From the NCBI GenBank assembly GCA_050179755.1, contig JBFXEV010000001.1:613940-677939 (forward strand): a stretch of 64,000 nt of DNA, in the 5' to 3' direction. The stretch is from Candidatus Babeliales bacterium. Lineage in GTDB: Bacteria; Babelota; Babeliae; Babelales; JBFXEV01. Made by a program: the position numbers and the translations under genes. Under the pieces are notes generated by a model. It had not been told where the DNA came from. It made no database searches and saw only the letters and a list, made by a program, of their open reading frames with translations. This document shows, in pieces, positions 4,955 through 59,648 of this stretch (its first letter is position 1; every line of letters begins with the position of its first letter).

Positions 4955-5030
4955 GTGGGAATAGCTCAGCTGGTAGAGCGTTGCCTTGCCAAGGCAAAGG
5001 TCGCGGGTTCGAATCCCGTTTCCCACTCCA
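4955..5030 (+). tRNA. tRNA-Gly (anticodon GCC), CCA encoded
   Basis: Hand-folded cloverleaf: acceptor GTGGGAA/TTCCCAC, D stem GCTC/GAGC, anticodon stem TTGCC/GGCAA with loop TTGCCAA, T stem GCGGG/CCCGT with TTCGAAT loop, discriminator T, CCA. Confidence 0.95.
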
Positions 5031-5131: not shown

Positions 5132-5133
5132 TC

Positions 5134-5186
5134 CGCTCATCCAGAGTGTTCTATAAAGCTTTAGCGAAATAGAATGTATCGAGGGG
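5134..5186 (+). repeat. Structured repeat family 2, copy 1
   Basis: Arms CGCTCATCCAGAGTG ... ATGTATCGAGGGG enclosing its own stem TTCTAT/ATAGAA (5149-5154 / 5169-5174). Confidence 0.6.
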
Positions 5187-5285
5187 CATTCAGGACTATT
5201 TCCCAAAGCCGAGTATACTGATACACTTACAAATAGCGTCCTTAAATTATTGTTTTTATGATTTTTTTCTCAAGGTACCACATAT

Positions 5286-6059
5286 ATGAAATCTATTGTT
5301 CAAGAAGGTTCTACTATCTCCAAGGCGGTTGAAAGTGCCTGGCAATCAGCCGGCAAACCCCACGAGTTTACCGTAAAAATCCTTGAAGAACCACAACACA
5401 ACTTTATTGGTATGACCACGCGATCCGCAAAAGTCGCTTTATTTTTTAAAGAACCAATATCATCTGGTAAGTCACACGATAAAGCAGAACGTTTTGGTCG
5501 CCAAGAACGTGCCGAGCGCAGTGAGCGCCCAGAACGCGGCGAACGCTCTGAGCGTGATAACCGTGGACGCGCTAAAAAGCAAGGTCGCGGGCCTCGCCAA
5601 GAAACTAATGGCAAACCATCCTCGTATGCAAAAGATTTTAGAAATGCGCAAGAAGAACAGCCTTCTTGGCCTAAAGAGCGTGAGCGAGCGCCGCAACGTG
5701 CACATAGTAAACCTTCTTTTGAACAAAAAGAGCAAGCTTTAGAGCATGAAGGTTCAGAAGATATGGCATTTGATGGCGTGTTCTGGACGCCAGAAATGAT
5801 TATCATGGCAAAAGATTGGTTGCAAGGTTCACTGGCTGCAATGGATTTGCCGCATGTGCACTATTCTACTGATGTGAATCGCCTTTATTTTAAAGTTTCA
5901 TTTGACGAGCCGGTTAATCCTAATATGGCAACCGAACGTCAAATATTCCGTAGCTTTGCAATGCTTTTAATGCAGCATATGCGCAATAGGCTTAAGCGCC
6001 CACTTAAGGGGTTTAAGGTTGTGTTGTCCCGCGGCGGTGTTGACGTTGAAGATGAATAG
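5286..6059 (+). CDS. jag: Jag/KhpB-like RNA-binding protein with an R/E-rich central repeat and an atypical C-terminus
   Basis: Jag_N-like start MKSIVQEGSTISKAVESAWQSAGKPHEFTVKILEEPQHNFIGM. Conserved position directly upstream of mnmE. Central ERAERSERPERGERSERDNRGR low-complexity tract. I could not see a clear GxxG/R3H motif. Confidence 0.7.
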   Translation: MKSIVQEGSTISKAVESAWQSAGKPHEFTVKILEEPQHNFIGMTTRSAKVALFFKEPISSGKSHDKAERFGRQERAERSERPERGERSERDNRGRAKKQGRGPRQETNGKPSSYAKDFRNAQEEQPSWPKERERAPQRAHSKPSFEQKEQALEHEGSEDMAFDGVFWTPEMIIMAKDWLQGSLAAMDLPHVHYSTDVNRLYFKVSFDEPVNPNMATERQIFRSFAMLLMQHMRNRLKRPLKGFKVVLSRGGVDVEDE

Positions 6060-6135: not shown

Positions 6136-6146
6136 GAATAATCAAT

Positions 6147-6245
6147 CGCTCACCCTGAGTAGTCCGTCATTTATGTGTTTTGCATTAAGCTTCTAGAGCC
6201 ATGAGTATGTTGTGGGAATAGGCAAATGACGGATGTATCGAAGGG
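6147..6245 (+). repeat. Structured repeat family 2, copy 2 (long centre)
   Basis: Arms CGCTCACCCTGAGTAG ... ATGTATCGAAGGG. Perfect 10-bp internal stem TCCGTCATTT/AAATGACGGA (6163-6172 / 6224-6233). Confidence 0.6.
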
Positions 6246-6271
6246 TTTCGGTTTCTATCGAGGTTATAAAC

Positions 6272-7705
6272 ATGGCATTATTTCATGCCAAAGATCAAGA
6301 AACTATTATAGCGCAATGCACCCCTCAAGGTAGTGGTGCATTGGCGCTTATTCGCTTATCTGGCAACACTGCATTTGAAGTTGCAGATCAACTTTGTAAG
6401 CTTGCAAGTAACATAAAGCTTTCTGAAGTTCCTTCACATACCGTGCATTATGGCAGCGTGGTAGAGCACACCGGTGCAATAATTGACCGCGTGATGATTA
6501 TTGCCATGCGTGGCCCCAAAACATTTACTGGCCAAGATACCGTAGAAATTACGTGTCATAATAATCAATTTGTGATTGAGCAAATTATTGAACGTGCAAT
6601 TGCGTGTGGTGCTCGTTTGGCTACGGGCGGCGAATTTTCAAAACGGTCAGTATTAAATAACAAGATGGATTTGGTGCAAGCAGAAGCAGTGCATGAATTG
6701 ATCCATGCAGCACATCAACAAAGTCTCAAGCAATCGCTGTCTCAGCTTGAAGGCAGCTTTAGCCGGTGGATTATCACTCTTGAAAAGCGCTTAGTTAAAT
6801 GCTTGGCACTTTCTGAAGCTAGTTTTGAATTTCTTGATGAAGAAAATATGGCGTTTGGTGGGCAAATTAGAGAGATGCTTTCCGCAACGCTCCGTGATAT
6901 TACCACCATTAAAAAAACGTTTGATCAACAACAACAAATTAGAGACGGCATTCGCATTGCCCTTTTGGGTTCAGTTAACGTAGGCAAATCATCTTTATTT
7001 AACGCACTGCTTGAAAAAGAACGCGCAATTGTGACTGATATTGCAGGCACCACGCGTGATGTTATAGAAGCAAGTATGAGCGTTGATGGTGGGTTTTGGA
7101 CGTTTGTGGATACAGCAGGATTACGCACAACCAATGACATTGTGGAGCTTAAAGGCATTGAACGATCTCACGAAGAAGCTGCAAAAGCTGATATTATTTT
7201 ATTGATCTATGATGGTGCACGCGAACTGCTTGAATCTGAGCGTGTGGTTTATCAATCAATTTTACGTGAGTATGGTTCTAAAGTTGTTGTGGTTCAAAAT
7301 AAGTCTGATCAATTTTTTTCACCGCTCATCCCGAGTGAATCGCGTAGCGATTTGTATCGAGGGACAGCCGATAAAAAAGATTTTCAAAAGTTGTTAATCC
7401 TTAAAACCTCTGTAAATCTTCCAGAAACTATCATTCAACTTCATCAAGTAATCAAAAATAAAGTGGCAACTCTTTTTGCAAGCAGCGCATCACCCTTTTT
7501 GCTTAATAAGCGTCAATTTCAATTGCTTGTGCAACTTGAACAAACAATTAATACTATAATGCCAATGCTAGATGGTGCTGTTGAATATGAGCTGCTCTCA
7601 TGCCATGTGCAAGATGCTTTGAGCAACCTTTCTGAACTTAGCGGTAAATCTATAAGTGAAGCCGGCATGGATGCAGTATTTAAAGAATTTTGTGTTGGAA
7701 AGTAA
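6272..7705 (+). CDS. mnmE: tRNA uridine-5-carboxymethylaminomethyl modification GTPase MnmE (TrmE)
   Basis: Start chosen at MALFHAKDQETIIAQCTP (ATG 6272). The track ORF begins 39 nt earlier, inside repeat copy 2. G motifs GSVNVGKSSL, DTAG and NKSD, and the C-terminal FCVGK signature. Confidence 0.92.
   Translation: MALFHAKDQETIIAQCTPQGSGALALIRLSGNTAFEVADQLCKLASNIKLSEVPSHTVHYGSVVEHTGAIIDRVMIIAMRGPKTFTGQDTVEITCHNNQFVIEQIIERAIACGARLATGGEFSKRSVLNNKMDLVQAEAVHELIHAAHQQSLKQSLSQLEGSFSRWIITLEKRLVKCLALSEASFEFLDEENMAFGGQIREMLSATLRDITTIKKTFDQQQQIRDGIRIALLGSVNVGKSSLFNALLEKERAIVTDIAGTTRDVIEASMSVDGGFWTFVDTAGLRTTNDIVELKGIERSHEEAAKADIILLIYDGARELLESERVVYQSILREYGSKVVVVQNKSDQFFSPLIPSESRSDLYRGTADKKDFQKLLILKTSVNLPETIIQLHQVIKNKVATLFASSASPFLLNKRQFQLLVQLEQTINTIMPMLDGAVEYELLSCHVQDALSNLSELSGKSISEAGMDAVFKEFCVGK
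7323..7363 (+). repeat. Structured repeat family 2, copy 3, in frame inside mnmE
   Basis: CGCTCATCCCGAGTGAATCGCGTAGCGATTTGTATCGAGGG with hairpin AATCGC-GTA-GCGATT. Translated as (P)LIPSESRSDLYRG just after the NKSD G4 motif. Confidence 0.6.
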
Positions 7706-30293: not shown

Positions 30294-32957
30294 TTAAACC
30301 GGCCCTACTTTGAATATGCTGAGGTTATCTCTGTTAAGCACTCGCTTAACGGCATCACGCACTTCTTGAACCGTAATTTTTTTGATTTCTTCTATGCGCG
30401 TTACTAAATAATCGTGCGGATATTTCCTTGCATTTAAATACAAGAAAGTACTTACAATGGATCCATTTGTTGAATATTGATCATTAAGGTCATTTGCCAT
30501 AGTTTGCTGCGCAAGCACTAAATCATCTTGAGTAAATTCATTTGCTAGTGTATCGATTGTATTAAGAATTAATTCTTGTGCTTCTTGAACCCGTGTTTGG
30601 GAAACTTGGGTTTTAATAAAGACTTCGCCAGGTTCTTGATTTGCCCCTTGTACAACTGAGCCACCAATCCAGTAAAATGCATTTGTTTTTTCTCGTAAAG
30701 CAAATAATTTATTGTTAAACACAACATCAAATAAAAGTAATGGGATATAATCTTTATGTTTGCTATTGACTGAAAGTCCAATAAAACCAAGCATGATTTG
30801 CTCACGTTCAATGTTATAGGTGATTTCTGTTTCAGTTTTTTTAACTTGGCCATTGAATAGCTTGCGGTCTTCAACTTTTGGCCCGTGCCATTTACCCAGA
30901 GTCTTTTCTAATACTTCAATTATATTGATACCAGATAAATCTCCTGCAATAGCAATAGTTGCACCGTTAGGACTACAATAATTGGTGTGGAACGCTTTAA
31001 TATCGTCAAGAGTAATACTTGCAATCGACTCGGGCGTTCCAATAGGATCTTGGAAGAATCCTGCTTCTTCATACAGATGTTTGCCCATCAAATAACACAT
31101 AATTGATTGTGGATCATCCCAGTAGTTTACATAATCGGTGAGCGCAAGTTGTTTTTGCTTTTCTAATTTTTCTTGTTCAAATAAGGGGTTGCAAATAATA
31201 TCAGTTAAAAGTTCAAATGCTTTTTGAGCTTCTTTGTTTAGCGTACTCATTCGATATGTTCCTGGAGAGATTGCAATACCTATGCCTCTTTTTTCAACCT
31301 CATTCCAGAGTAGTTCTTTTGGCCAATTTTTTGTACCTTCAAATAACATGGCAACATATAGTGCGTTCAAAGGTGATTTGTCTTTTGGTTGATAACCGCT
31401 ATCGAATTTTAGGTCCAACTGTACTTCAATCTGTGGTAAATTATCATTGTGATAGTAGAGTACCTTAAGGCCATTTGAAAGGGTGTGCACTCCAGGTTTT
31501 GGAATGGCAATGGCAATAGGTTCTTGTGCGATTACTGTGTGCACGTACTTACCTTGCTCTACAGGAGACTGGCGCATTTTATTTTGCGAGAGCAAAAGAT
31601 CTTCTTGATTTACTTTCTCTTGTAGTTCTTTCCAAATGGGTCGTTCCTCTTCCGGAAGAGGTAGCAGTGTGCCCATGTGCCTTACTGAGCTGCGCAAGTA
31701 TTTTTTAATAAAGGTTTGTATTTCTTGTTTAATGTGCGCATAATCGTGTCTTAAATATTCAAATACGCCATCTTCTTTTTTGGTTGTAAGATAATGTGAA
31801 GCAATAGAAGATGCTTGAGCATGATTATTTTCCAGCATTACATAAAAGCTTGCTTCAAACATGGTGATTACTTTTGAAATTTCTTCAATTGTAGGCCCTT
31901 CAGTTTGCAGTAGAGAAAGTTCTTGCTGAATACAAGCTATTATTTTTTCTACATCTTCTTGTTGGTTTGGTTCAAATCCTATAAGCAGTATATCATGATC
32001 ATGAAGTCTCCATGTGTTTGCACTGATTGAATGTATCAACTTTTGGTTCTCTACTAATTTTTTATATAATCGAGAATTTTGCCCGCTACATAAGATATTT
32101 AAAAAGACATCAAGCGCAATGCTAGAGTATTTTTTTGAACCCGGAACTTCATATGCTATAGCTACAACTGGCTTTTGCACATTTCGGTAGAGAGTTACTG
32201 ATTTTGAGCAAATATCTTCTTGGTGAGTACATTGTTTTTGTTTATATGAAAAATTCGGTTTTTTGTCGCCAAAGTGCTTAGTAACTTGTTTAAGAGCCTC
32301 TTTAGGGTCAATATTACCTACAATTACCAAAACGGCATTGTTGGGAATATAATGCTTTTTATAGAATGCTACCAGTTTTTCACGAGATAACGATTCTAAG
32401 TCTGATTGATAACCAATTATAGGATAATGATACGGGTGATCAGGGAAAACAGAAGCCATCAATGTTTGGCTTACTTGGATGCCATAATCGTCACGGCAAT
32501 TTTTCATTTCTTGAATGACCACTTGAAGCTCAGCGTTAAGTAAGTCTTGCTTAAAGGTGCAATTGGTCATAATATCAGAAAGAATAGGGAGTGCCTCAAA
32601 CCAATGTTGGGTCGGTAAGTCTAAATAAAAACGTGTGCGATCATAGCTTGTATCCGCATTAAAAGAACCTGAAAGCTTGTTAACCGTTAGGCGAATATCA
32701 GTTTCGGACATTTTCTGAGTACCCTTAAAGCACATGTGCTCAAGCCAATGAGCAAGGCCCTTTTCATCGTCAGCTTCATGCTTTGAACCTACATTTACCC
32801 AAAGTTGAGTGCTCACGTTTTGTGTAGTTTTTACCGGCCGAATTAAGACGGTCAGACCATTTTCAAGCACATGTTTTTGCACGTGCGTGCTCGCATTAAT
32901 GAATGTAATGCAGAGTAAAAGGTTCAATGAGACTAGGTTAATAAGTAGTTTTTGCAT
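30294..32957 (-). CDS. Secreted M16 (pitrilysin/insulinase) family zinc peptidase, tandem-domain, 887 aa (paralog a)
   Basis: Signal MQKLLINLVSLNLLLCITFINA. Inverted zinc motif GLAHWLEHMCFKGT. A second inactive-type M16 half. Confidence 0.88.
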   Translation of the reverse strand: MQKLLINLVSLNLLLCITFINASTHVQKHVLENGLTVLIRPVKTTQNVSTQLWVNVGSKHEADDEKGLAHWLEHMCFKGTQKMSETDIRLTVNKLSGSFNADTSYDRTRFYLDLPTQHWFEALPILSDIMTNCTFKQDLLNAELQVVIQEMKNCRDDYGIQVSQTLMASVFPDHPYHYPIIGYQSDLESLSREKLVAFYKKHYIPNNAVLVIVGNIDPKEALKQVTKHFGDKKPNFSYKQKQCTHQEDICSKSVTLYRNVQKPVVAIAYEVPGSKKYSSIALDVFLNILCSGQNSRLYKKLVENQKLIHSISANTWRLHDHDILLIGFEPNQQEDVEKIIACIQQELSLLQTEGPTIEEISKVITMFEASFYVMLENNHAQASSIASHYLTTKKEDGVFEYLRHDYAHIKQEIQTFIKKYLRSSVRHMGTLLPLPEEERPIWKELQEKVNQEDLLLSQNKMRQSPVEQGKYVHTVIAQEPIAIAIPKPGVHTLSNGLKVLYYHNDNLPQIEVQLDLKFDSGYQPKDKSPLNALYVAMLFEGTKNWPKELLWNEVEKRGIGIAISPGTYRMSTLNKEAQKAFELLTDIICNPLFEQEKLEKQKQLALTDYVNYWDDPQSIMCYLMGKHLYEEAGFFQDPIGTPESIASITLDDIKAFHTNYCSPNGATIAIAGDLSGINIIEVLEKTLGKWHGPKVEDRKLFNGQVKKTETEITYNIEREQIMLGFIGLSVNSKHKDYIPLLLFDVVFNNKLFALREKTNAFYWIGGSVVQGANQEPGEVFIKTQVSQTRVQEAQELILNTIDTLANEFTQDDLVLAQQTMANDLNDQYSTNGSIVSTFLYLNARKYPHDYLVTRIEEIKKITVQEVRDAVKRVLNRDNLSIFKVGPV

Positions 32958-33068
32958 AAATAGAATCGCTTTTAGTATTAACTCAAAAAGTAGCTTTTGT
33001 CATAAAGTAAGCATAGCAGGATGGCGAGCTTTTTCAATTATTTTCCATATAATCACAAATTGAAATAA

Positions 33069-33106
33069 TTCGCGCAAGGCCGCCTGGCGCTTCAATCCTT
33101 GCCATT
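33069..33106 (-). repeat. GC-rich repeat family 1, short copy G (reverse orientation)
   Basis: The reverse complement AATGGCAAGGATTGAAGCGCCAGGCGGCCTTGCGCGAA shares AATGGC, CCAGGCG and TTGCG..AA with copy E. Confidence 0.35.
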
Positions 33107-33196
33107 ATTTTTACAAATTGTATAATAAGTAATAATAATATAATGTATTATGGTTAAATGGTGGATATTCTTCTTTTCTTATTAGTAAGGCAAAAA

Positions 33197-34261
33197 ATGG
33201 CCCAATCATTCAAAATGCTCACAATCCTTTGTTTGACTATCTCTGTAAGCAGTAAGGCTACGTTTGTAAAGATGGAGGAGTTATTTCACCCTCATCTTAA
33301 GCAGACAATTATTTTGGGTGCCGATATATATAGTAATGATATTTCTCAACAAGATGATGTATTGGCTGCGATACAAAATAACAAAGCATATACAATTTTA
33401 GAGGTTTTCAATGATGACAAGCCAATAAGTGAGCCTACATTACTTTTACATGCGCTAGAGGCAGAATTAACCCTTCAAAGATTGCCAGGCTATAAATGTG
33501 ATTTCGGAAAAGGCTTACGGCAACTTATTGATGCGAAATATTCCTTTAGAGAATACTATACTGAATGTATGAAAAAATTAGGGCAAGATGAAGATGCTAA
33601 AGCAGCAATTTTCATTTCTACTATTCGTGCATTTAACCAGGCACTTGCTGACGGCTTTGCTATACTCAAAGAAATTTCACAAGACATTGCACTTTTAAAA
33701 AATGATAATTTTTACTCAGCAGACCAGATAGAAATCCTTGCTATTGAATTGGACAAAATCGGTATTTTATGTAATGAAATAAATACTATTATTGCCACGG
33801 CGTTTCCAAAAGAAGTTGGTGATGATGAAACTGATACAATTACTTTTGTAGATTTGGTTTCGAGCGATACATTTATAGAAAGTATAAACGATTTGTTCCA
33901 TGGCGAGAGTAGTCTATTTTCAAACTTGTTTGATATGAGTAATTTATTATTTGAGATGCGAGTAATAGTTCATATTTTAAAAAATAAACGAGAGCCAGTT
34001 ATTTTTGTGTGTGCATATGAATCGCGTATTGATAATATATCAAGGATTTTAAAAGATTTATCATATATTGTTCAGACATCAAAAGAAAGAGATTTAAGCA
34101 ATCTACCAACTAGTCCTAATATTTATATTGGGGTGGACGCTATTTCTATTTCACCGTATTTTATATTGGCTGCAATTCCAGAGTTTAATGTTCAAGAATT
34201 TATAGCTGCGTGCAAAACATTAAAAAACAACCCGCCTGCAGATGTTGCCGCGGCGGGTTAA
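33197..34261 (+). CDS. Hypothetical exported protein (354 aa) inserted between M16 paralogs
   Basis: ATG 33197 (MAQSFKMLTILCLTISVSSKA signal) after TAAGG. No family recognised. Confidence 0.6.
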   Translation: MAQSFKMLTILCLTISVSSKATFVKMEELFHPHLKQTIILGADIYSNDISQQDDVLAAIQNNKAYTILEVFNDDKPISEPTLLLHALEAELTLQRLPGYKCDFGKGLRQLIDAKYSFREYYTECMKKLGQDEDAKAAIFISTIRAFNQALADGFAILKEISQDIALLKNDNFYSADQIEILAIELDKIGILCNEINTIIATAFPKEVGDDETDTITFVDLVSSDTFIESINDLFHGESSLFSNLFDMSNLLFEMRVIVHILKNKREPVIFVCAYESRIDNISRILKDLSYIVQTSKERDLSNLPTSPNIYIGVDAISISPYFILAAIPEFNVQEFIAACKTLKNNPPADVAAAG

Positions 34262-34274
34262 TGTTTCTTGGTGC

Positions 34275-36935
34275 TCAATTAACAGAACCTACTTTAAATA
34301 CGCTCATGTTCTTGGAATTAAATACCTTTTTTACCGCATCACGCACTTCTTGCACCGTGATCTTTTTAAGCTCATCAATACGCGTTACATAATAGTCATA
34401 CGGCAGTTCATAATCATGCAAAAAAGCAAACGAGCTTGCAATAGAATTATTGGTAGAATATTGATCATTAATAGTATTAATTAGGGCGTTTTGCGCATCA
34501 TAAAGATCATGCTCAGTAAACGAATCTGCCGCATGATCAATAAAATGTAAAATCATGTCTTGTGCTTCTTGTGCTCGCGTTTGAGAAACTTGCGTTTTAA
34601 TGACTGCATAACCAGGGCGTTTGGAAACGTTACTAATTACGGATCCTGCAATGCCATAAAAGGCATTACTTTGCTCGCGCAAGGTAAATAACTTTTTATT
34701 GAGCACTTGGTTAAACAGCGCCAGTGCGTGAAAATCTTTATGACGGCGATCAATTGATGGACCACATACTGCAAGCATTATTTGCTCACGTTCAATAGGG
34801 TGTAGTATTGTTTCTGGTTTATGTTTAGGTAACGTTTGATATGTGATATCTTTAACTCTTAGTCCCTGCCATTTGCCAAACGTATGCTCGACAATTTTTC
34901 GTAGGTTTAATCCATTCAAATCACCAACAATCACTAGTGTTGCACCTTGCGGGCTGTAATATTTGGCATGAAAATCATGGAGCATGTTGGGTGTTATGGC
35001 CGCAATGCTTTCTGGCGTGCCTAATGTGTTAGGGCATTGACCTTGCCACATATGCTTATCAATTAAATAATCTAAAATAGAATCTGGGTTATCCCAGAAC
35101 TTTTTATAGTAAGCAAGCACGTGCTGTTTAATTTTTTCTAAATTGTTAGTATCAAAACGGGGATTTGCAATAATATCTGTTGCCAGTTCCATGCTCATTG
35201 CAGCATTTTGTGTAAGCACGTTCATGGTAAATGAACCAATACCAGTGGTAACCCCTGCACCATAGCGCTCAAGTTCTTCCATGAGGTTTTTCTTGGAGCG
35301 TGTTTTGGTTCCTTCAAGAAGCATTGCATTAAGAATTGAGCAGAGACCGGGTGCTTTCTTGGGTTCATACCAACTATCAAATTTAAATTGTAAATTAATA
35401 GTTACTTTCGGGATATTATCATTATGATAATAGAGCACTTTAAGGCCATTGTCGAGCATAAATTCTTGCGGCACTGCAATATCATGCACGTTTGGTTCAC
35501 GCGCAATAACCTTATGCATATAGACCGGCGCTTCAACTGGTGATATCCGCTTTTTATCTTGCAATAATTGGGCATCTTCTTGGTTTGATTGTGTTTGCAA
35601 TTGCTTCCAAGTCTCATGCTCTTCAGGTGGTAACGGCATTAGCAAGCCGGTGTGCATTATTGAAGGCCGCAAATAATTGCATACCAGTTGTTGTATGTCA
35701 TGCATAATTGATGTTATAGTGCTCGTAAAATAATTAAAGAGCGCATCGTCATGCCCTGTTGCAAGATACAGGCGGCCAATAGTTTCTGCTTGACTGTGAT
35801 TTGATTCAAGCATATCAAAAAAACTTGATTGGATTTTTTGCACCGTCCATGCAACTTCATTTTGTGTTGGTCCATATATTTTTAAACGTTCAAGTTCATT
35901 CCAAATAATAGCATGAATTGTAGGTATTGTTGCCGCATCATGTGGTTCAAATATAATCCACAACGTATCAGCATCAAATAAGCCAAAAGAATGTACGCTT
36001 ATACTGGTAACAAGTTGTTCTTCATCAACTAATCTTTTGTATAAACGTGAATCTCTGCCACCCGCAAGAATACGTTCAAGCACTTCAAAGGCTATAGGTT
36101 GCCCTGCTTTTGCGCCCGGTATTTTAAATAGTGCAATGGCAGTGGGTTTTTGCACGTCGCGATAAAGTGTTATGTTTTTAGTTTCTATATCTGTGTGATT
36201 GCTCCATTCTTTTTGATGGTATGCCCAATTAGGCTGCATGTGGCCAAAAGTGGCGGTCGCGCGTTCAATAACATCATTAACTTCTACATTGCCAACTATC
36301 ACCAATACAGCGTTATTAGGTATATAATGTTTTTTATAGAATGCATATAATCTATCACGCGAGAGGGCTTGAAGATCTGATTTAAATCCAATTATAGGAT
36401 AATGGTACGGATGATCGGGGAATAATGCAGTTATCATTTCCATCATCAAATGGCGCAAAAAATTATCATGATGATTTTTCATTTCTTGAATCACCACTTG
36501 CACCTCAGCATTCAAAAGATCCTGTTTAAACGTGCAATTTTGCATCATATCTGCAAACATCGGGAGCGCCTCAAACCAATGTTGTGAGGGAAAATTTAAA
36601 AAATAGCGCGTATAATCGTAGCTGGTTGCTGCGTTAAAGGAGCCTGATAATTTTGCTGCAGTTAAGCGCACGTCAGTTTCACTCATATTGTCTGTGCCTT
36701 TAAAACACATGTGCTCAAGCCAATGCGCAAGTCCTTTTTCGGAGTCAGCTTCATGTTTGGAACCAACATTAAACCAAAGTTGCGTGCTTACTTTTTGTGC
36801 TGTTTTAACGGGGCGTACGAGAATGGTCATACCATTTTCAAGTACATGTTTGTGCACATGTTTACCAGCGGATGCTGTTAGAGCACACGCGAATAATGAT
36901 AGATATAAAAATAGGTGAATTAGCTTTTTATGCAT
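34275..36935 (-). CDS. Secreted M16 family zinc peptidase, 886 aa (paralog b)
   Basis: Signal MHKKLIHLFLYLSLFACALTASA. GLAHWLEHMCFKGT. N-terminal ~130 aa nearly collinear and highly similar to paralog a. Confidence 0.88.
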   Translation of the reverse strand: MHKKLIHLFLYLSLFACALTASAGKHVHKHVLENGMTILVRPVKTAQKVSTQLWFNVGSKHEADSEKGLAHWLEHMCFKGTDNMSETDVRLTAAKLSGSFNAATSYDYTRYFLNFPSQHWFEALPMFADMMQNCTFKQDLLNAEVQVVIQEMKNHHDNFLRHLMMEMITALFPDHPYHYPIIGFKSDLQALSRDRLYAFYKKHYIPNNAVLVIVGNVEVNDVIERATATFGHMQPNWAYHQKEWSNHTDIETKNITLYRDVQKPTAIALFKIPGAKAGQPIAFEVLERILAGGRDSRLYKRLVDEEQLVTSISVHSFGLFDADTLWIIFEPHDAATIPTIHAIIWNELERLKIYGPTQNEVAWTVQKIQSSFFDMLESNHSQAETIGRLYLATGHDDALFNYFTSTITSIMHDIQQLVCNYLRPSIMHTGLLMPLPPEEHETWKQLQTQSNQEDAQLLQDKKRISPVEAPVYMHKVIAREPNVHDIAVPQEFMLDNGLKVLYYHNDNIPKVTINLQFKFDSWYEPKKAPGLCSILNAMLLEGTKTRSKKNLMEELERYGAGVTTGIGSFTMNVLTQNAAMSMELATDIIANPRFDTNNLEKIKQHVLAYYKKFWDNPDSILDYLIDKHMWQGQCPNTLGTPESIAAITPNMLHDFHAKYYSPQGATLVIVGDLNGLNLRKIVEHTFGKWQGLRVKDITYQTLPKHKPETILHPIEREQIMLAVCGPSIDRRHKDFHALALFNQVLNKKLFTLREQSNAFYGIAGSVISNVSKRPGYAVIKTQVSQTRAQEAQDMILHFIDHAADSFTEHDLYDAQNALINTINDQYSTNNSIASSFAFLHDYELPYDYYVTRIDELKKITVQEVRDAVKKVFNSKNMSVFKVGSVN

Positions 36936-37009
36936 TATTGATCTCTCTATTTTTTAAGATGTTGTACTATTCTTAGTGTAGCGTGACTTAGCAATAGCGT
37001 CTAATGGAT

Positions 37010-37036
37010 AAAAAAAAGGCTGCTTTTAAACAGCCC
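37010..37036 (-). terminator. Intrinsic terminator downstream of M16 paralog c
   Basis: On the minus-strand RNA: GGGCUG-UUUAAAAG-CAGCCU followed by a U7-8 run (the plus-strand A run at 37010-37017). Confidence 0.55.
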
Positions 37037-37041
37037 TATTA

Positions 37042-39681
37042 TTATTTTATTCTGCCAATTTTAATTTTTGCCAGTTTATTGCTATCCAAGAATTTCTTGC
37101 ACGTTGCAAGAACGTCTTGCTTAGTAATTTTTGCAAGATGTTGTGCACGCGTATCGTAATAATCCATAGGCAAATGATAGCGTTCTAAGAATAAAAATGT
37201 TGCTGCAATGCTGCGGTTGGCCTCAAAGTTATTAACCATTGAATTGGCAAGTGCGTTATACGCTTGCGCAAATTCTTCATCATCAATGGTATTGCATGCG
37301 GTATTGATTGTATGTTCAATCGCTTTTTCAGCTTCTTCCAGTCTATCGAGTGAGACAATAGTTTTTATAAATACCATGCCAGGTTGTTTGTCGCTGCTGG
37401 CAAGCAAGGACCCGCCAATAGTATAAAAGAGCCCGGATTGTTCACGCAGCTCAAATAACCGAGAACTCATAGAGCCCAGCACGCCACCGGTGAATATTTG
37501 ATTGAATAACAGTAACTTATCGTATTCTGGATCAAGGCGAGAAACAGAAAGCCCTGCATAGGTGAGCACTATTTGATCGCGATTGATCGGGTAATTAAGA
37601 ACCTCTTGTTTTTCTATTGGCGCAAGTGGAGGGAAAACAGTTTCTTTAACTTCAGGGCCCTGCCATGCGCCGAGTGTGCGTTCAAGCAAAGCTGGAATAT
37701 CGTAGCCAGATAAATCACCCACAATTGCCATTATTGTGCCTTTTGGTGTGATGGCTTGCTTATAACATTGATTAAGAAGTTCTTGATCAATATTTTTAAG
37801 TGATTCGGGGGTGCCCATTGCTTGTTTTGCGTAGGGGTGGTTTTTATAAATAATCTCTTGTGCAAGTTGTGATGCAAACTCAGAAGGCGTATCCCAAAAG
37901 TTTTTAATGCTTGCATATAATTGCGAGCGCACTTTATTGATCGCTTCTTTAGGGAAATTGGATTCCGTTAAAATTTCAAGTAATAACCCAAGCCCTTTTT
38001 CAAGATCTTGGCTTAACATATTCATATTAATAAGCCCTGGTGATGCGCCAAAACTCATGCCGTTACTTTCAATCACATTGGCAAGCTGTTCGCCAGTATG
38101 TTTTTTAGTACCTTCAGAAAGCATGGCACTCATAAACATGTTGAGGCCTTGCAAGTCTTCTGGGTCATAATAATATTTTGTCTTTAAATCCAGAAGTAAC
38201 TCAACCTTAGGGATGTTTGGGTTATGGTAAAATAATATTTTTAAACCATTAGGCAGTGTAATTGATTGAGGTTTAGGGAAGTTAAATGGTTTTGGTTTGT
38301 CAGTGCAAATAGTATGCACGTGCACACCTTTTTCTACTTCAACTTCGCGCTTTATGCGTGAGAGCACGCGGGCATCTTCTTGGTCGGAGCGGTCTTGAAA
38401 ATGATGCCACAGATCTTTATCTTGGTCTTTGAATGGCAGCACTACGCCCGTATGCTCAAGCGTTGGGCGCACGAAGAAATGTATAATTTCTTTAATATCT
38501 TTTTCAATTTCTTCTGGGCTTTCAGTGCCATACGTAAACATAAAATTGGGTTCACCAAGTGCCAAGTAAGTTTGGCCGATGATATATGCCTGCTTTTGTG
38601 TGTTTTCAAGCACGGATAAGTATTTAGTTTTGGCTTGTTTTATGGCGCGCTTAAGCTCATCTTGGCTAAAGCCGTTTTGCGCAATATCTTCTAGCTGGGC
38701 ATTGATGATATCAGTAATTTTTTGTATATCTTTTGCATCGTTTGGTTGAAAGTAAATAAAGAGTATGCCGCAATCAAATAAGTCATACGTAAAAGCTTCA
38801 AGCTCAGTGCATAATTGCATTTCGTGTATAAGTTTTTTTTGTAATCGTGAGCTTTTGCCAAGCCCAATTAGCCAGCATAAAACTTCTAAGGCAAAGTCTT
38901 TGCTTGAACGTGCTCCAGGAACGGTAAAAGCAAGCGCTGCAAACGGTTGCTGCACGTCACGATAGATGGTTACCGATTTGCCACCAATTTCTGGTGAAAA
39001 GTAAAATTCTTCTTTTTTGTAATCAAAGTTTGGCTTAATACAACCAAACTCTTTTTCAGCTTCGGCAAATACTTGCTCAGGATCAACGTCACCCACCACA
39101 ACGAGCGTTGCATTATTGGGTATATAATGCTCTTTATAAAATGCAATAAGTTGATCGCGCTTTAGATTCCAGAGATCTTGTTTAAAGCCAATAATAGGGT
39201 GTTGGTACGGATGGCCAGAGAAAATGGATCCGATCATATCTTCAATAAGTGATGAAGTATAGTCATCGCGGTACATTTTAAGTTCCTGAATAACTGCCTT
39301 AAGTTCAGAATTTAATAGTTCTTCTTTAAAGGTGCAATTGGCCATGCAATCTGCCATAATAGGCAATGCTTGCCGCCAATTTTGGCTTGGTAGATTAAAT
39401 AAGTAGCCAGTGTAATCAAATGAAGTAAAGGCGTTACAATCACCAGAAAGCTTGTTCACGATCATATTAATATCTGACTCTGATAGCTTTTTGGTGCCCT
39501 TAAAGATCATGTGCTCAATTAAATGCGCAATGCCCTTTTGGCCAGTTTTTTCATCTTTGGAGCCTACGTTATACCAAAGTTGGATTGAGACCTTAGGTAT
39601 GTTATGGGTAGGTCTGACAAGAACTGTCAGACCATTTTTTAATTTTTTCTCAAATACGTGATTAATAGAAGCGTGTGTCAT
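37042..39681 (-). CDS. M16 family zinc peptidase without a signal peptide, 879 aa (paralog c)
   Basis: Starts MTHASINHVFEKKLKNGLTVLVRP with no hydrophobic leader. GIAHLIEHMIFKGT. Same two-half architecture. Confidence 0.88.
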   Translation of the reverse strand: MTHASINHVFEKKLKNGLTVLVRPTHNIPKVSIQLWYNVGSKDEKTGQKGIAHLIEHMIFKGTKKLSESDINMIVNKLSGDCNAFTSFDYTGYLFNLPSQNWRQALPIMADCMANCTFKEELLNSELKAVIQELKMYRDDYTSSLIEDMIGSIFSGHPYQHPIIGFKQDLWNLKRDQLIAFYKEHYIPNNATLVVVGDVDPEQVFAEAEKEFGCIKPNFDYKKEEFYFSPEIGGKSVTIYRDVQQPFAALAFTVPGARSSKDFALEVLCWLIGLGKSSRLQKKLIHEMQLCTELEAFTYDLFDCGILFIYFQPNDAKDIQKITDIINAQLEDIAQNGFSQDELKRAIKQAKTKYLSVLENTQKQAYIIGQTYLALGEPNFMFTYGTESPEEIEKDIKEIIHFFVRPTLEHTGVVLPFKDQDKDLWHHFQDRSDQEDARVLSRIKREVEVEKGVHVHTICTDKPKPFNFPKPQSITLPNGLKILFYHNPNIPKVELLLDLKTKYYYDPEDLQGLNMFMSAMLSEGTKKHTGEQLANVIESNGMSFGASPGLINMNMLSQDLEKGLGLLLEILTESNFPKEAINKVRSQLYASIKNFWDTPSEFASQLAQEIIYKNHPYAKQAMGTPESLKNIDQELLNQCYKQAITPKGTIMAIVGDLSGYDIPALLERTLGAWQGPEVKETVFPPLAPIEKQEVLNYPINRDQIVLTYAGLSVSRLDPEYDKLLLFNQIFTGGVLGSMSSRLFELREQSGLFYTIGGSLLASSDKQPGMVFIKTIVSLDRLEEAEKAIEHTINTACNTIDDEEFAQAYNALANSMVNNFEANRSIAATFLFLERYHLPMDYYDTRAQHLAKITKQDVLATCKKFLDSNKLAKIKIGRIK

Positions 39682-57752: not shown

Positions 57753-59648
57753 TTATTCCTTTGTTTTCTTTGCTTTAGGAGCTGATGTTTCTTTATCAGC
57801 TTCTTTTTGTTCTTCTTTATGACGTTCTAATTCTAATTGAAGGAGCGATTTAGGGCGATTAGCTTCAGGCTGCGTTTGAGACTTACGCTCTTTACGCTCT
57901 GGGCGTTCACCACGTTCGCTGCGTTCACTACCACGTTCACTACGTTCGCCGCGTTCGGTGCGTTCACGAGGTGCTTTAGCTTCACGTGGTTCACGTTGTT
58001 CACGCGGTTGTTCAGCTGTAGCATCCAAACGAGGGCTCAAGCCAATCTTTTGTTCGCCACTGCTTACTTTGACCACGCGGAATTTTTCCTTTTGACCAAC
58101 TTTGAGGATGTCCTCAATTTTTTGGCCTGGATATTCTTTAACGTGTACAAGACCTTCTACACCAGAAGCTAATTTAACAAAAGCTCCAAAGTTAGTGATC
58201 TTAGAAACTTCACCTTCAATAATTGATCCTACGGGGAAGTCTTTTTCAATGGTTTCCCATGGGTTATTGCCAAGTTGTTTTACACCAAGTGAAACACGCT
58301 GGCTCTTTTCATCAACTGAAAGAACAACTGCTTCAATTTCAGTGCCAACTTTATAGCGATCAGAAGGATGCACTATATGTTCTGTCCATGAAAGGTCAGA
58401 AATATACACAAGACCATCAATGCCAGGTTTTAATTCAACAAACACACCAAAGTCGGTAATGTTGCTGATTGGCCCTTTAACTTTTTGACCAACTTTAAAT
58501 TCTTCGGCAATGCCTTCCCACGGATTTTTCTCAAGCTGTTTAATGCTGAGTGACATTCTGCGGTTTTCTTTATCAATAGAAACCACTTTTGCAGCAACTT
58601 CTTGGCCTGGTTTGTATTGCTTTTTCAAGTTATCAATACGTCCGCCCCAAGAAACTTCGCTAATGTGCACCAAGCCTTCAACGCCTTTTGCAACTTCTAC
58701 AAATAAGCCGTAGTCGGTAATGCTTGAAACAACACCTTTGATAGTGTCACCAGCGTTAACTTCCCCAGTAACTTTATCCCAAGGGTTTTCAGAAAGTTGT
58801 TTAAGGCCAAGAGAGATTTTTTCGTGGTCTTTATCAAATGATAAGACTTTAACGTCAATCTTTTCACCTAATTTAATAAGTTCACTTGGATGGCCAATAC
58901 GTCCCCATGTCATATCAGTAATATGAAGGAGTCCATCAACGCCGCCGATATCAATAAAGGCACCATAATTGGTGATATTTTTAACAATACCAGGGATCAC
59001 TTGACCAACTTCAAGACCTGTTAAGATATCTTTGCGTTGTTCAGTGCGCTGTTCTTGTAAATGTTTGCGGCGAGAAATAATAACGTTACCACGCTTTTGG
59101 TTAATTTTTAACACGTTTGCAGTGATACGTTGGCCAACCCATTCATCAAAGTTAGTGATACGGTGAAGATCAACTTGTGATCCTGGAAGGAACGCTGATA
59201 CACCAATATCCACGCTTAAACCACCTTTAACTTTGTGAGTAACAATACCTTCTGCAGGTTCGCCAGACTCAAAGAGTTTAGTGATTTTATCCCATGCTCT
59301 GAGTGATTTAGCTTTTTCATAGGAAATATGAATATTTCCGTCGTAGCCTTCAAGTTCATCAAGGATTACTTCTACCACGTCGCCAACTTTAAGATTTTTC
59401 ATCTCGTAGTCAGAAAATTCATAACGGGGAATAAAGCCATGAGATTTATAACCGATGTCCACGAGGGCACCATCGTTTTCTACTTTGATAATGCTTGCTT
59501 GAATAATAGTACCAACGGTAAGATTTTCAAAAGCACCATCAAAAAGGGTTTCAAGCTCTTGTTGGAGCTGAGCATTAACTAAATGCTCGTCATCCACTTG
59601 AGGAAGAGCACGTGCAAATTGACTTGCGCGCAAGACTTCTTTTGCCAT
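57753..59648 (-). CDS. rpsA: 30S ribosomal protein S1 with an R/E-rich C-terminal tail
   Basis: ATG 59646-59648 (MAKEVLRASQF). The track ORF extends 35 codons further upstream. Six S1 repeats (GxVxxxxxxGxFVxxxxGxxGLxHxSE pattern). Tail PRERTERGERSERGSERSERGERPERKERK. 5-nt gap to ndk. Confidence 0.92.
   Translation of the reverse strand: MAKEVLRASQFARALPQVDDEHLVNAQLQQELETLFDGAFENLTVGTIIQASIIKVENDGALVDIGYKSHGFIPRYEFSDYEMKNLKVGDVVEVILDELEGYDGNIHISYEKAKSLRAWDKITKLFESGEPAEGIVTHKVKGGLSVDIGVSAFLPGSQVDLHRITNFDEWVGQRITANVLKINQKRGNVIISRRKHLQEQRTEQRKDILTGLEVGQVIPGIVKNITNYGAFIDIGGVDGLLHITDMTWGRIGHPSELIKLGEKIDVKVLSFDKDHEKISLGLKQLSENPWDKVTGEVNAGDTIKGVVSSITDYGLFVEVAKGVEGLVHISEVSWGGRIDNLKKQYKPGQEVAAKVVSIDKENRRMSLSIKQLEKNPWEGIAEEFKVGQKVKGPISNITDFGVFVELKPGIDGLVYISDLSWTEHIVHPSDRYKVGTEIEAVVLSVDEKSQRVSLGVKQLGNNPWETIEKDFPVGSIIEGEVSKITNFGAFVKLASGVEGLVHVKEYPGQKIEDILKVGQKEKFRVVKVSSGEQKIGLSPRLDATAEQPREQREPREAKAPRERTERGERSERGSERSERGERPERKERKSQTQPEANRPKSLLQLELERHKEEQKEADKETSAPKAKKTKE

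What the first reader, a model, noticed from the sequence alone, without database searches (positions are those of the whole stretch)
7323..7363. In-frame insertion of the hairpin repeat into the G domain of the essential GTPase MnmE
Copy 3 lies inside mnmE without breaking the frame. It encodes (P)LIPSESRSDLYRG immediately after the G4 motif NKSD.

About 30 residues separate NKSD from the LKTS strand. As I recall the E. coli protein, only ~18 residues occupy the equivalent segment. That fits a 14-17 codon insertion.

The inserted segment is visibly more GC-rich than its flanks.

In-frame colonisation of surface loops of conserved proteins is the hallmark of Rickettsia palindromic elements. 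Seeing the same behaviour from an unrelated consensus suggests an independent, possibly undescribed, peptide-coding selfish element.
Basis: partly seen in the sequence, partly recalled or inferred. Interest (0 to 1): 0.62.

Follow-up and report, generated by a model that had tools for sequence, protein, structure and literature searches.

The report
Hairpin repeat inserted in MnmE loop
A 51-base copy of a small hairpin-forming DNA repeat sits in frame inside the tRNA-modification GTPase gene mnmE of an uncultured Babeliales bacterium, adding 17 amino acids to a floppy surface loop. Related bacteria carry copies in the same loop, so this is a new host and variant of behaviour already known from Rickettsia palindromic elements and intragenic REPs.

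Summary
Window 7322-7372 (51 nt, 57% GC against about 30% in the flanks) is a copy of a dispersed hairpin repeat. The repeat has about 60-80 copies in this 1.5-Mb Babeliales (Dependentiae) genome. It has conserved arms (CCGCTCAYCCYGAG ... TCGARGGR) and a variable, self-pairing centre.

The copy adds exactly 17 residues (PLIPSESRSDLYRGTAD) between the G4 motif NKSD and the next strand of MnmE. The same-genus relative and 18 other order members lack it. AlphaFold gives the segment pLDDT below 50, consistent with a disordered loop.

- The insertion is not unique to this genome. Two sister lineages carry an element at the same left junction.
- At least three more distant Babeliales MnmEs carry copies in the same loop in other frames or orientations. 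This loop is the only internal insertion site seen in 120 homologues.
- The compact core (CCTGAGCYTGTCGAAGG) occurs in many phyla at 47-174 copies per genome.
- In-frame REPs are already described (RPEs; Di Nocera 2013).

No transposase partner was found.

Verdict: a REP/RPE-like selfish hairpin tolerated in a permissive loop. It is a new variant of a known kind, of moderate interest.

The parts
6272..7705 (+). mnmE (tRNA modification GTPase MnmE), 477 aa counted from the ATG at 6272. The longest ORF starts at 6233, inside repeat copy 2.
   Evidence: Pfam TrmE_N, MMR_HSR1 and MnmE_helical. Orthologues are present in 31 of 31 relatives. Homologues start at MALFH.../M..F.
7298..7309 (+). G4 motif NKSD (residues 343-346).
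   Evidence: Translation. The K and D columns are invariant in the alignments.
7322..7372 (+). Inserted repeat copy, 51 nt = 17 codons, PLIPSESRSDLYRGTAD (residues 351-367).
   Evidence: Gap in the protein and DNA alignments against the congener. An identical 17-aa peptide is encoded by a copy in a congener hemerythrin-domain gene. GC is 57%. AlphaFold pLDDT is below 50 for residues 350-373.
7322..7337 (+). Conserved left arm CCGCTCATCCCGAGTG.
   Evidence: Shared by about 80 sites in the genome, against 4 in the control.
7338..7353 (+). Variable centre AATCGCGTAGCGATTT, a 7-bp stem with a 3-nt loop.
   Evidence: Fold. Centres differ between copies but 28 of 42 fold with z below -2. The congener copy keeps the stem through a change on both sides, CGCG..GCG to CACG..GTG.
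7354..7372 (+). Conserved right arm GTATCGAGGGAC plus tail AGCCGAT.
   Evidence: The tail resembles the ACGGCGGACAG / ACAGCCGA tails of other copies.
7313..7321 (+). T-run plus CA (TTTTTTTCA) abutting the left arm. It may be the target or part of the element. The matching A-run is at 7373-7378.
   Evidence: The same TTTTCA|CCGCTC junction occurs in at least 5 other copies and in relatives P0002 and P0003.
7400..7408 (+). LKT strand that closes the loop (residues 377-379).
   Evidence: AlphaFold strand 376-378 and alignment.
6146..6244 (+). Repeat copy 2, long form with a 77-nt centre, in the jag-mnmE spacer just upstream of the mnmE start.
   Evidence: genome 620085-620183. The centre folds.
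5133..5187 (+). Repeat copy 1, about 105 nt downstream of a tRNA gene (4955-5027).

Best explanation
Window 7322-7372 is a copy of a small non-autonomous palindromic repeat of the REP / RPE type. It became part of the mnmE coding sequence as DNA. It persists because it is 51 nt long, is read in a frame without stop codons, and lies in the variable connection between G4 (NKSD) and the next strand of the G domain. That connection is a solvent-exposed, disordered loop.

**Shown**
- The repeat family exists and is dispersed.
- The segment is absent from the congener and from most relatives.
- The segment is modelled as unstructured.
- The same loop carries element copies in several other Babeliales lineages, in different frames, orientations and positions.
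- No other internal site of MnmE shows insertions in 120 homologues.
- The family's arms are conserved across 80 of 201 Dependentiae genomes, while the centres vary but always self-pair.
- The compact core is multi-copy in many other phyla.

**Inferred**
- The element spreads as a selfish hairpin by an unidentified trans-acting activity, with no transposase of its own.
- Selection removes all genic insertions except in-frame ones in permissive loops.
- The copy in this genome probably descends from one insertion in the common ancestor of this lineage and of the P0002 and P0003 lineages, after the split from the congener.
- The centre was later exchanged in P0002, either by gene conversion or by a second hit at the same site.
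- The 17 residues are probably neutral passengers with no function of their own.
For: **The repeat family**
- Exact copy and family counts with clean controls.

**The insertion in MnmE**
- A 17-aa extra segment against 19 relatives.
- The DNA gap coincides with the element.
- With the 51 nt removed, the loop is 14 aa, as in the congener.
- An identical peptide is encoded by a copy in an unrelated congener gene that has no orthologue here.
- A second in-frame copy in this genome is absent from its congener orthologue.

**Structure**
- AlphaFold gives pLDDT below 50 for residues 350-373, flanked by confident strands 338-343 and 376-378.
- E. coli MnmE shows a 14-residue gap at this segment.

**The loop in relatives**
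- The loop is 12-16 aa in 93 of 120 homologues.
- All internal rare insertions lie in this loop.
- Element DNA was confirmed in the loops of P0002, P0003, P0005, P0009 and P0052.
- A tree built with the loop masked groups this genome with P0002 and P0003, sister to the congener.

**Distribution and structure of the family**
- The long form occurs in 80 of 201 Dependentiae genomes, with 0 hits in the reversed controls.
- The compact core occurs across phyla at 47-174 copies per genome.
- Centres fold far better than shuffles.

**Assembly check**
- No contig in the source-like metagenome skips the insert.
Against: - No mobilising enzyme was found, so mobility is inferred from distribution only. 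The only Y1-transposase-like gene lacks the HUH histidine and the catalytic tyrosine, and it is not flanked by repeats in the congener.
- No arm pairs flank a transposase gene.
- No target-site duplication is evident.
- The element's exact ends are uncertain. The flanking T-run and A-run may belong to it.
- Support for the clade that would make the insertion a single ancestral event is moderate (95/74 and 97/76).
- The centre differs completely between this genome and P0002.
- Translation of the insert and the activity of the decorated MnmE are untested.
- Recurrent hits in one loop could reflect selection for something rather than mere tolerance.
Confidence: 0.8

Rival explanations
1. The copies in this genome, P0002 and P0003 are independent insertions into the same preferred target (T-rich ...TTTTCA^). 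They are not one ancestral event. The loop is a hot spot because of target choice as much as tolerance.
For: - The centre of P0002 (TTCTTCGTAGCTTTAGCGAAGAAGAAT) is unrelated to this genome's centre (AATCGCGTAGCGATTT), although the arms are identical.
- The residues before and after the element differ between the three (4+10, 4+2 and 13+1).
- The TTTTCA|CCGCTC junction recurs at other copies.
- Other lineages clearly had separate hits in this loop.
- The congener's empty site contains ATTTTCA.
Against: - The three form a clade in the loop-masked tree.
- The left junction is the same in all three.
- The T-run may be part of the element itself rather than a target.
Confidence: 0.3
2. The hairpin or its peptide has been exapted. 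One possibility is an mRNA structure that affects mnmE expression or decay. Another is a loop extension that modulates the G domain. Recurrence in this loop would then reflect positive selection.
For: - Insertions recur in one loop across lineages.
- The insert has been retained in frame while the protein diverged by about 21-24%.
- The stem is kept by a compensatory change in a congener copy.
Against: - The inserted peptides differ in frame, orientation and sequence between lineages, so no common peptide function exists.
- Most Babeliales MnmEs (93 of 120) have the short loop.
- The segment is modelled as disordered.
- The same element sits in unrelated proteins and mostly between genes.
Confidence: 0.08
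3. The segment did not arrive by transposition. It was copied in by ectopic recombination or gene conversion, or by template switching at a hairpin, from a nearby copy. Copy 2 lies about 1 kb upstream.
For: - Copies share 14-16-nt arms that could prime template switching.
- Centres appear to be swapped between otherwise identical copies.
- Nested copies exist (genome 1340584-1340659).
- No transposase was found.
Against: - Copy 2 has a different centre. The closest copies (44 of 45 identical) are far away, at genome 709147 and 846438.
- Conversion needs a pre-existing homologous target in mnmE, and the congener shows none.
Confidence: 0.15
4. The segment is an assembly artefact: a repeat-induced misjoin in a metagenome-assembled genome.
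For: Short-read contigs of the source-like landfill metagenome break inside the repeat (records 1 and 8).
Against: - The two contigs overlap by 29 nt across the centre and continue into mnmE on both sides with 0 differences.
- The frame is preserved.
- Independent assemblies of relatives carry an element at the same place.
- No contig skips the insert.
Confidence: 0.02

Closest known systems
Rickettsia palindromic elements (RPEs; Ogata et al. 2000, 2002, as summarised in PMC10969869 and PMC3733652)
   Same: - A dispersed palindromic repeat in an obligate intracellular or host-associated bacterium with a small genome.
- Copies are inserted in frame into functional genes and encode a recurrent peptide.
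- Copies are located where the fold tolerates them.
- No transposase of its own.
   Different: - The size is 51 nt here (24-100 nt in the family), against about 100-150 bp for RPE-1.
- Only about 5 of about 70 copies are genic here, against nearly half for some RPE families.
- The architecture is modular: conserved arms around a freely variable self-pairing centre.
- The host phylum is Dependentiae.
- Sequence relatedness to any RPE was not tested.
CGTC-tagged REPs, including RPE-4, RPE-6 and Neisseria dRS3 (Di Nocera, De Gregorio and Rocco 2013, PMC3733652)
   Same: - Short stem-loop repeats found in several phyla, especially Sphingomonadales.
- Stems of 8-9 bp starting with A-T pairs and loops of 4-5 nt. 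The compact form here reads AT-CCTGAG-CTTGT-CGAAGG-AT.
- The tag varies (CGTC, TGTC, CCTC). Some copies here read CGTC.
- Often arranged in inverted pairs.
- Intragenic in-frame copies are reported.
- No dedicated transposase.
   Different: - Most copies here carry GCTC rather than CGTC.
- No CCA tail is seen.
- The long form replaces the loop by a whole extra hairpin.
- The paper's consensus figures are not held, so identity with any of the four CGTC families could not be checked.
REP / BIME / REPIN elements mobilised by RAYT (TnpA-REP) transposases
   Same: - Imperfect palindromes of 20-40 nt in tens to hundreds of copies.
- Inverted doublets.
- Mostly intergenic, often downstream of genes and next to tRNA genes.
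   Different: - No GTAG tag.
- No functional RAYT. The single Y1-like gene lacks the catalytic residues and is not flanked by repeats in the congener.
Intragenic MITEs of other bacteria (Coxiella QMITE1/2, PMC5896051; ERIC; Correia/NEMIS)
   Same: Small non-autonomous repeats that create in-frame fusions or insertions in host ORFs.
   Different: Those are 70-300 bp, with terminal inverted repeats and often target duplications and a recognisable parent IS. None of these features was found here.

Membership tests
Rickettsia palindromic elements (RPE) | Dispersed palindromic repeat with many copies per genome | tested here: met
   42 long-form plus 24 compact copies, against 0 and 1 in controls. 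Hairpin folds.
Rickettsia palindromic elements (RPE) | Copies inserted in frame in functional ORFs, absent from orthologues | tested here: met
   mnmE, a 379-aa protein, and three more ORFs.
Rickettsia palindromic elements (RPE) | Sequence similarity to an RPE consensus (RPE-1 to RPE-10) | not tested
   No RPE sequence was available in the tools. Ogata 2002 is not held.
Rickettsia palindromic elements (RPE) | Length about 100-150 bp (RPE-1 type) | tested here: not met
   The insert is 51 nt. Family members are 24-100 nt.
REP/REPIN with RAYT | Terminal GTAG tetranucleotide | tested here: not met
   The arms read CCGCTCAYCC... and ...GGRTGAGCGG. GTAG occurs only by chance in one centre loop.
REP/REPIN with RAYT | A RAYT (HUH Y1 transposase) gene flanked by the repeats | tested here: not met
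   The single PF01797 hit (63 bits) has LVH in place of HUH and Phe in place of the Tyr. It is conserved in the congener, where no repeats flank it.
CGTC-tagged REPs (Di Nocera 2013) | Unpaired terminal CGTC (or TGTC / CCTC) tag | tested here: inconclusive
   Most copies read GCTC-AT. Some read CTCGTCC or GTTCGTCC. In those copies the CGTC can pair with GACG.
CGTC-tagged REPs (Di Nocera 2013) | 8-9 bp stem beginning with A-T pairs, loop of 4-5 nt | tested here: met
   The compact form reads ATCCTGAG-CTTGT-CGAAGGAT. This is not met by the long form, whose loop is replaced by a hairpin.
CGTC-tagged REPs (Di Nocera 2013) | Short unpaired CCA tail | tested here: not met
   The tails here are ATGAGCGG or CGGCGGACAG.
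CGTC-tagged REPs (Di Nocera 2013) | Match to one of the four family consensus sequences | not testable with these tools
   The consensus sequences are in figures that are not held. No sequence strings are in the text or supplements.
MITE | Terminal inverted repeats of 15-30 bp shared with a parent IS, and target-site duplication | tested here: not met
   No transposase lies between convergent arm pairs. No duplication is visible at the mnmE junctions.
MnmE (host gene) | TrmE_N, G domain with G1-G4, helical domain, C-terminal FCxGK | tested here: met
   Pfam. GSVNVGKS, DTAG and NKSD are present and the protein ends in FCVGK. It matches solved MnmE structures.

The most novel reading that the evidence does not exclude
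The arms-plus-variable-centre hairpins of Babeliales and the compact CCTGAGCYTGTCGAAGG hairpin of many phyla could be one pan-bacterial class of minimal mobile elements.

On this reading they move without a transposase of their own. Possible routes are a host or widely shared nuclease, or hairpin-primed template switching at replication forks. They would insert preferentially into T-rich single-stranded targets and into each other's loops, and they would exchange centres by conversion.

The MnmE G4-G5 loop would then be a natural landing pad. Its many independent hits give a series of filled and empty sites from which the insertion chemistry could be read.
Probability: 0.25. Interest if true: 0.7.

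Novelty: new variant of a known kind. Interest (0 to 1): 0.45.

Why it matters
In-frame colonisation of proteins by palindromic repeats is mostly known from Rickettsia and from scattered intragenic REPs. This case adds three things.

- **A new host phylum.** The host is Dependentiae, parasites of protists.
- **A modular element architecture.** Invariant arms enclose a freely exchangeable hairpin.
- **A natural experiment.** One loop of a conserved GTPase has been hit repeatedly, in different frames and orientations, across an order. That series of filled and empty sites could help define where and how these hairpins insert. Their mobilising activity is still unknown, and Di Nocera 2013 notes that CGTC REPs lack a dedicated transposase.

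It also marks a position in MnmE that tolerates insertions of 8 to over 100 residues.

For annotation, the element explains odd GC-rich segments and spurious small ORFs in these genomes.

Tried and rejected
- **Rfam.** No family matches any copy, long or compact, at gathering score or at E up to 5-10.
- **RAYT hypothesis.** Rejected. The only Y1_Tnp-like gene lacks the catalytic residues and is not repeat-flanked in the congener.
- **Parent IS.** Convergent arm pairs 150-6000 nt apart enclose tRNA, secE/nusG, rsmH and similar genes, with no transposase.
- **Frameshift idea.** A pairwise DNA alignment suggested a 49-nt insertion plus a compensating 2-nt indel. I dropped this. The congener's hemerythrin-gene copy and the P0002 and P0003 alignments show a clean 51-nt block.
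- **GIY-YIG nuclease lead from earlier notes.**
  - The small GIY-YIG gene of this genome (562307-562522) has no repeats beside it.
  - Across 34 genomes, 16 of 17 high-load genomes have at least 2 GIY-YIG hits, against 9 of 17 zero-load genomes (p = 0.017).
The result is inconclusive.
- **Literature searches.** Searches by the DNA core and by the peptides it encodes found nothing. A search for thdF together with RPE found nothing.
- **Polymorphism.** No contig in four metagenomes skips the 51 nt. These are assembled contigs, which drop rare variants.
Full report
**What is at the site.** Window 6272-7705 (+) encodes a complete MnmE. It has the TrmE_N domain, a G domain with GSVNVGKS / DTAG / NKSD, the helical domain, and the C-terminal FCVGK. 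It matches solved MnmE structures from end to end. The window lies in a single-contig 1.525-Mb genome of 39% GC. Earlier notes of this scan and the source names of homologous proteins place it in Candidatus Babeliales, phylum Dependentiae.

**The repeat family is real.** BLAST of the region against the whole genome gives several 43-45-nt matches at 94-98% identity, plus many partial ones. A search for the two arms finds 42 copies, against none in the reversed genome. The arms are CCGCTCAYCCYGAGTG ... GTATCGARGG, separated by 3-90 nt.

A compact form has the arms joined by only CTTG or CCTG: CCGCTCATCCTGAGCTTGTCGAAGGA. It adds 24 copies, against 1 in the control. About 80 left arms are present in all, against 4 in the control.

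The centres differ completely between subfamilies, but almost all are self-complementary. 28 of 42 fold with z below -2 against shuffles. The arms themselves pair through C-G pairs around a tandem G.A/A.G step. Nested copies occur, with a compact copy inside a long one.

The window holds three copies:
- 5133-5187, just after a tRNA gene;
- 6146-6244, in the jag-mnmE spacer;
- 7322-7372, in mnmE.

No Rfam family matches any of them.

**It is an insertion.** I aligned this MnmE with the same-genus genome G001 (76% identity) and 18 other same-order genomes. It has 17 extra residues between NKSD and the KTS strand. At the DNA level the gap coincides with the element.

The congener carries a near-identical copy, with a compensatory G-C to A-T change in the stem, inside a hemerythrin-domain gene. 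There it encodes the same 17 residues, PLIPSESRSDLYRGTAD. That gene has no orthologue in this genome. This fixes the unit at 51 nt (7322-7372). With the block removed, the loop is 14 residues, as in the congener.

The block is 57% GC, against 34% and 28% in the flanks. Four of its six reading frames are open, and mnmE uses one of them.

**Where it sits in the protein.** An AlphaFold model built on the 20-sequence alignment (mean pLDDT 79) gives confident strands at 338-343 (ending in G4) and at 376-378. Residues 350-373, the insert and its surroundings, have pLDDT below 50. E. coli MnmE shows a 14-residue gap against this segment, and T. maritima MnmE has a somewhat longer connection. The insert therefore lengthens a naturally variable connection of the G domain. 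That it points away from the nucleotide and dimer faces follows from the Ras-like fold in general. I did not measure it.

**The loop is hit again and again.** Among the 120 closest MnmE homologues in the 5.8-billion-protein collection, the loop is 12-16 residues in 93. All internal rare insertions of 8 or more alignment columns fall in this one loop.

Several of the longer loops read as translations of the element. I fetched the DNA for five of them:
- P0002 has TTTTTTTCA|CCGCTCATCCCGAGTG-[a different 27-nt centre]-GTATCGAGGGACAGCC, at the same left junction as here.
- P0003 has TTCTCTTCA|TCCCTCACCCCGAGTG-GATCGGGAAGCGATTT-GTATCGAGGGG.
- P0005 has a copy with a CCCGGCATTTT...AACGGG centre in another frame.
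- P0009 has a full copy read in the AHPE frame.
- P0052 has a compact copy in reverse orientation (SFDKLRMNG).

A maximum-likelihood tree of MnmE with the loop masked gives (G001,(P0003,(own,P0002))), with support 95/74 and 97/76. The copy here is therefore most simply an insertion in the common ancestor of three lineages after the split from the congener, with the centre later replaced in P0002. Independent hits at a preferred TTTTCA^ target cannot be excluded. The copies in P0005, P0009 and P0052 are clearly separate events.

Wastewater metagenomes hold relatives about 87% identical in mnmE. Their contigs follow the window up to the left arm and then diverge, and the repeat core is laid at 50-100 times the depth of the flanks. 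In the landfill metagenome that holds the window at 100%, no contig skips the insert. Two contigs overlap across its centre.

**Other in-frame copies.** In this genome the same frame and orientation occur in a 379-aa protein, where the copy encodes PLTPSESPSDLYRGA. This segment is absent from the congener orthologue at 77% identity and from two others.

Compact copies lie in frame in three more proteins:
- a secreted RING-like protein (ILRQAQDER);
- an ankyrin protein, just after its signal peptide (SAHPELVEG);
- a 1837-aa protein (VLRPAQDGR).

Most copies are intergenic or lie upstream of start codons, for example before leuS.

**How widespread the family is.** The long-form pattern occurs in the congener (23 exact hits), and in 80 of 201 Dependentiae genomes and 54 of 120 genera. 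There are up to 98 hits per genome and none in any reversed control. Centres vary endlessly but always pair.

The compact core is not confined to this phylum. The hits were in Sphingomonadales, Burkholderiales, Methylococcales, Chloroflexota/Dehalococcoidia, Acidobacteriota, Cyanobacteria and Moraxella. Four of those genomes carry 47-174 exact 17-mer cores each, often as inverted doublets, with zero in the controls.

**What moves it.** This is unknown.
- The only Y1-transposase-like gene lacks the first HUH histidine and the tyrosine. It is conserved in the congener and has no repeats beside it there.
- No arm pair encloses a transposase.
- Earlier notes of this scan suggested a small GIY-YIG nuclease. 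Here the small GIY-YIG gene has no repeats beside it. One congener copy does have them.

**Comparison with what is known.** In-frame palindromic repeats are the hallmark of RPEs (PMC10969869). Di Nocera et al. 2013 (PMC3733652) describe two REP superfamilies, with intragenic copies in many species. They file RPE-4 and RPE-6 with the CGTC-tagged REPs, note that these abound in Sphingomonadales, and note that they lack a dedicated transposase.

The compact form here fits their verbal description in having an 8-9-bp stem starting with A-T pairs and a 4-5-nt loop. It does not fit in tag or tail. Their consensus figures are not held, so membership stays open.

The Babeliales long form seems not to be described in the papers I could search. 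It has invariant arms with a whole exchangeable hairpin in place of the loop.

**Verdict.** The selfish-element reading is supported. The claims of uniqueness to this lineage and of independence from known elements are not supported. The added value lies in three points: the order-wide modular family, the link to a cross-phylum hairpin core, and the recurrent use of one MnmE loop.

Noticed in passing
window 6146-6244 and 6233-6272: Repeat copy 2 ends about 28 nt before the likely mnmE start (ATG at 6272). The longest ORF starts at 6233, inside the repeat, so automatic annotation would add 13 spurious residues.
   Followed up: partly
outside the window: genome C1:216899-217327 (-), L030:1501-1818: An IS200-type Y1 transposase homologue has LVH in place of HUH and Phe in place of the catalytic Tyr. 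It is conserved at about 80% identity and in synteny in the congener (L031:1465-1893). It looks like a domesticated or dead TnpA, not a RAYT.
   Followed up: partly
outside the window: genome C1:488382-489545 (+), 1093967-1094899 (-), 1483259-1488772 (-), 324334-325512 (-): Four further proteins carry in-frame copies of the same repeat family: a secreted RING-like protein, an ankyrin protein, a 1837-aa protein and a 379-aa membrane-anchored protein. Only the 379-aa protein was compared with orthologues.
   Followed up: partly
window 7305-7385 in runs X4, X5, X8: In wastewater and soil metagenomes the repeat core is laid at 50-100 times the depth of flanking mnmE sequence. Elements with this very centre are therefore abundant in many organisms of those samples.
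   Followed up: no
outside the window: genome C1:1340582-1340659 (L026) and 1323840-1323925: A compact copy is nested inside the centre of a long copy. This suggests that elements insert into each other's loops.
   Followed up: no
L021:579-1514 (-) (congener G001:C1:1096578-1097513): A congener hemerythrin-domain protein carries the identical 17-aa element peptide in a low-complexity N-terminal linker. The gene has no orthologue in this genome.
   Followed up: yes
window 30297-39582: Three tandem paralogous blocks of about 3-4 kb (61-85% identical over the repeated pieces; spacing 3975 and 2800 nt) point to a gene family expansion. Not examined.
   Followed up: no
window 5521-5559 and 57929-57967: An Arg/Glu-rich low-complexity stretch (ERxERxER...) in the Jag-like protein (5286-6059) is 79% complementary to a segment 52 kb away. 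This is probably a shared simple repeat.
   Followed up: no
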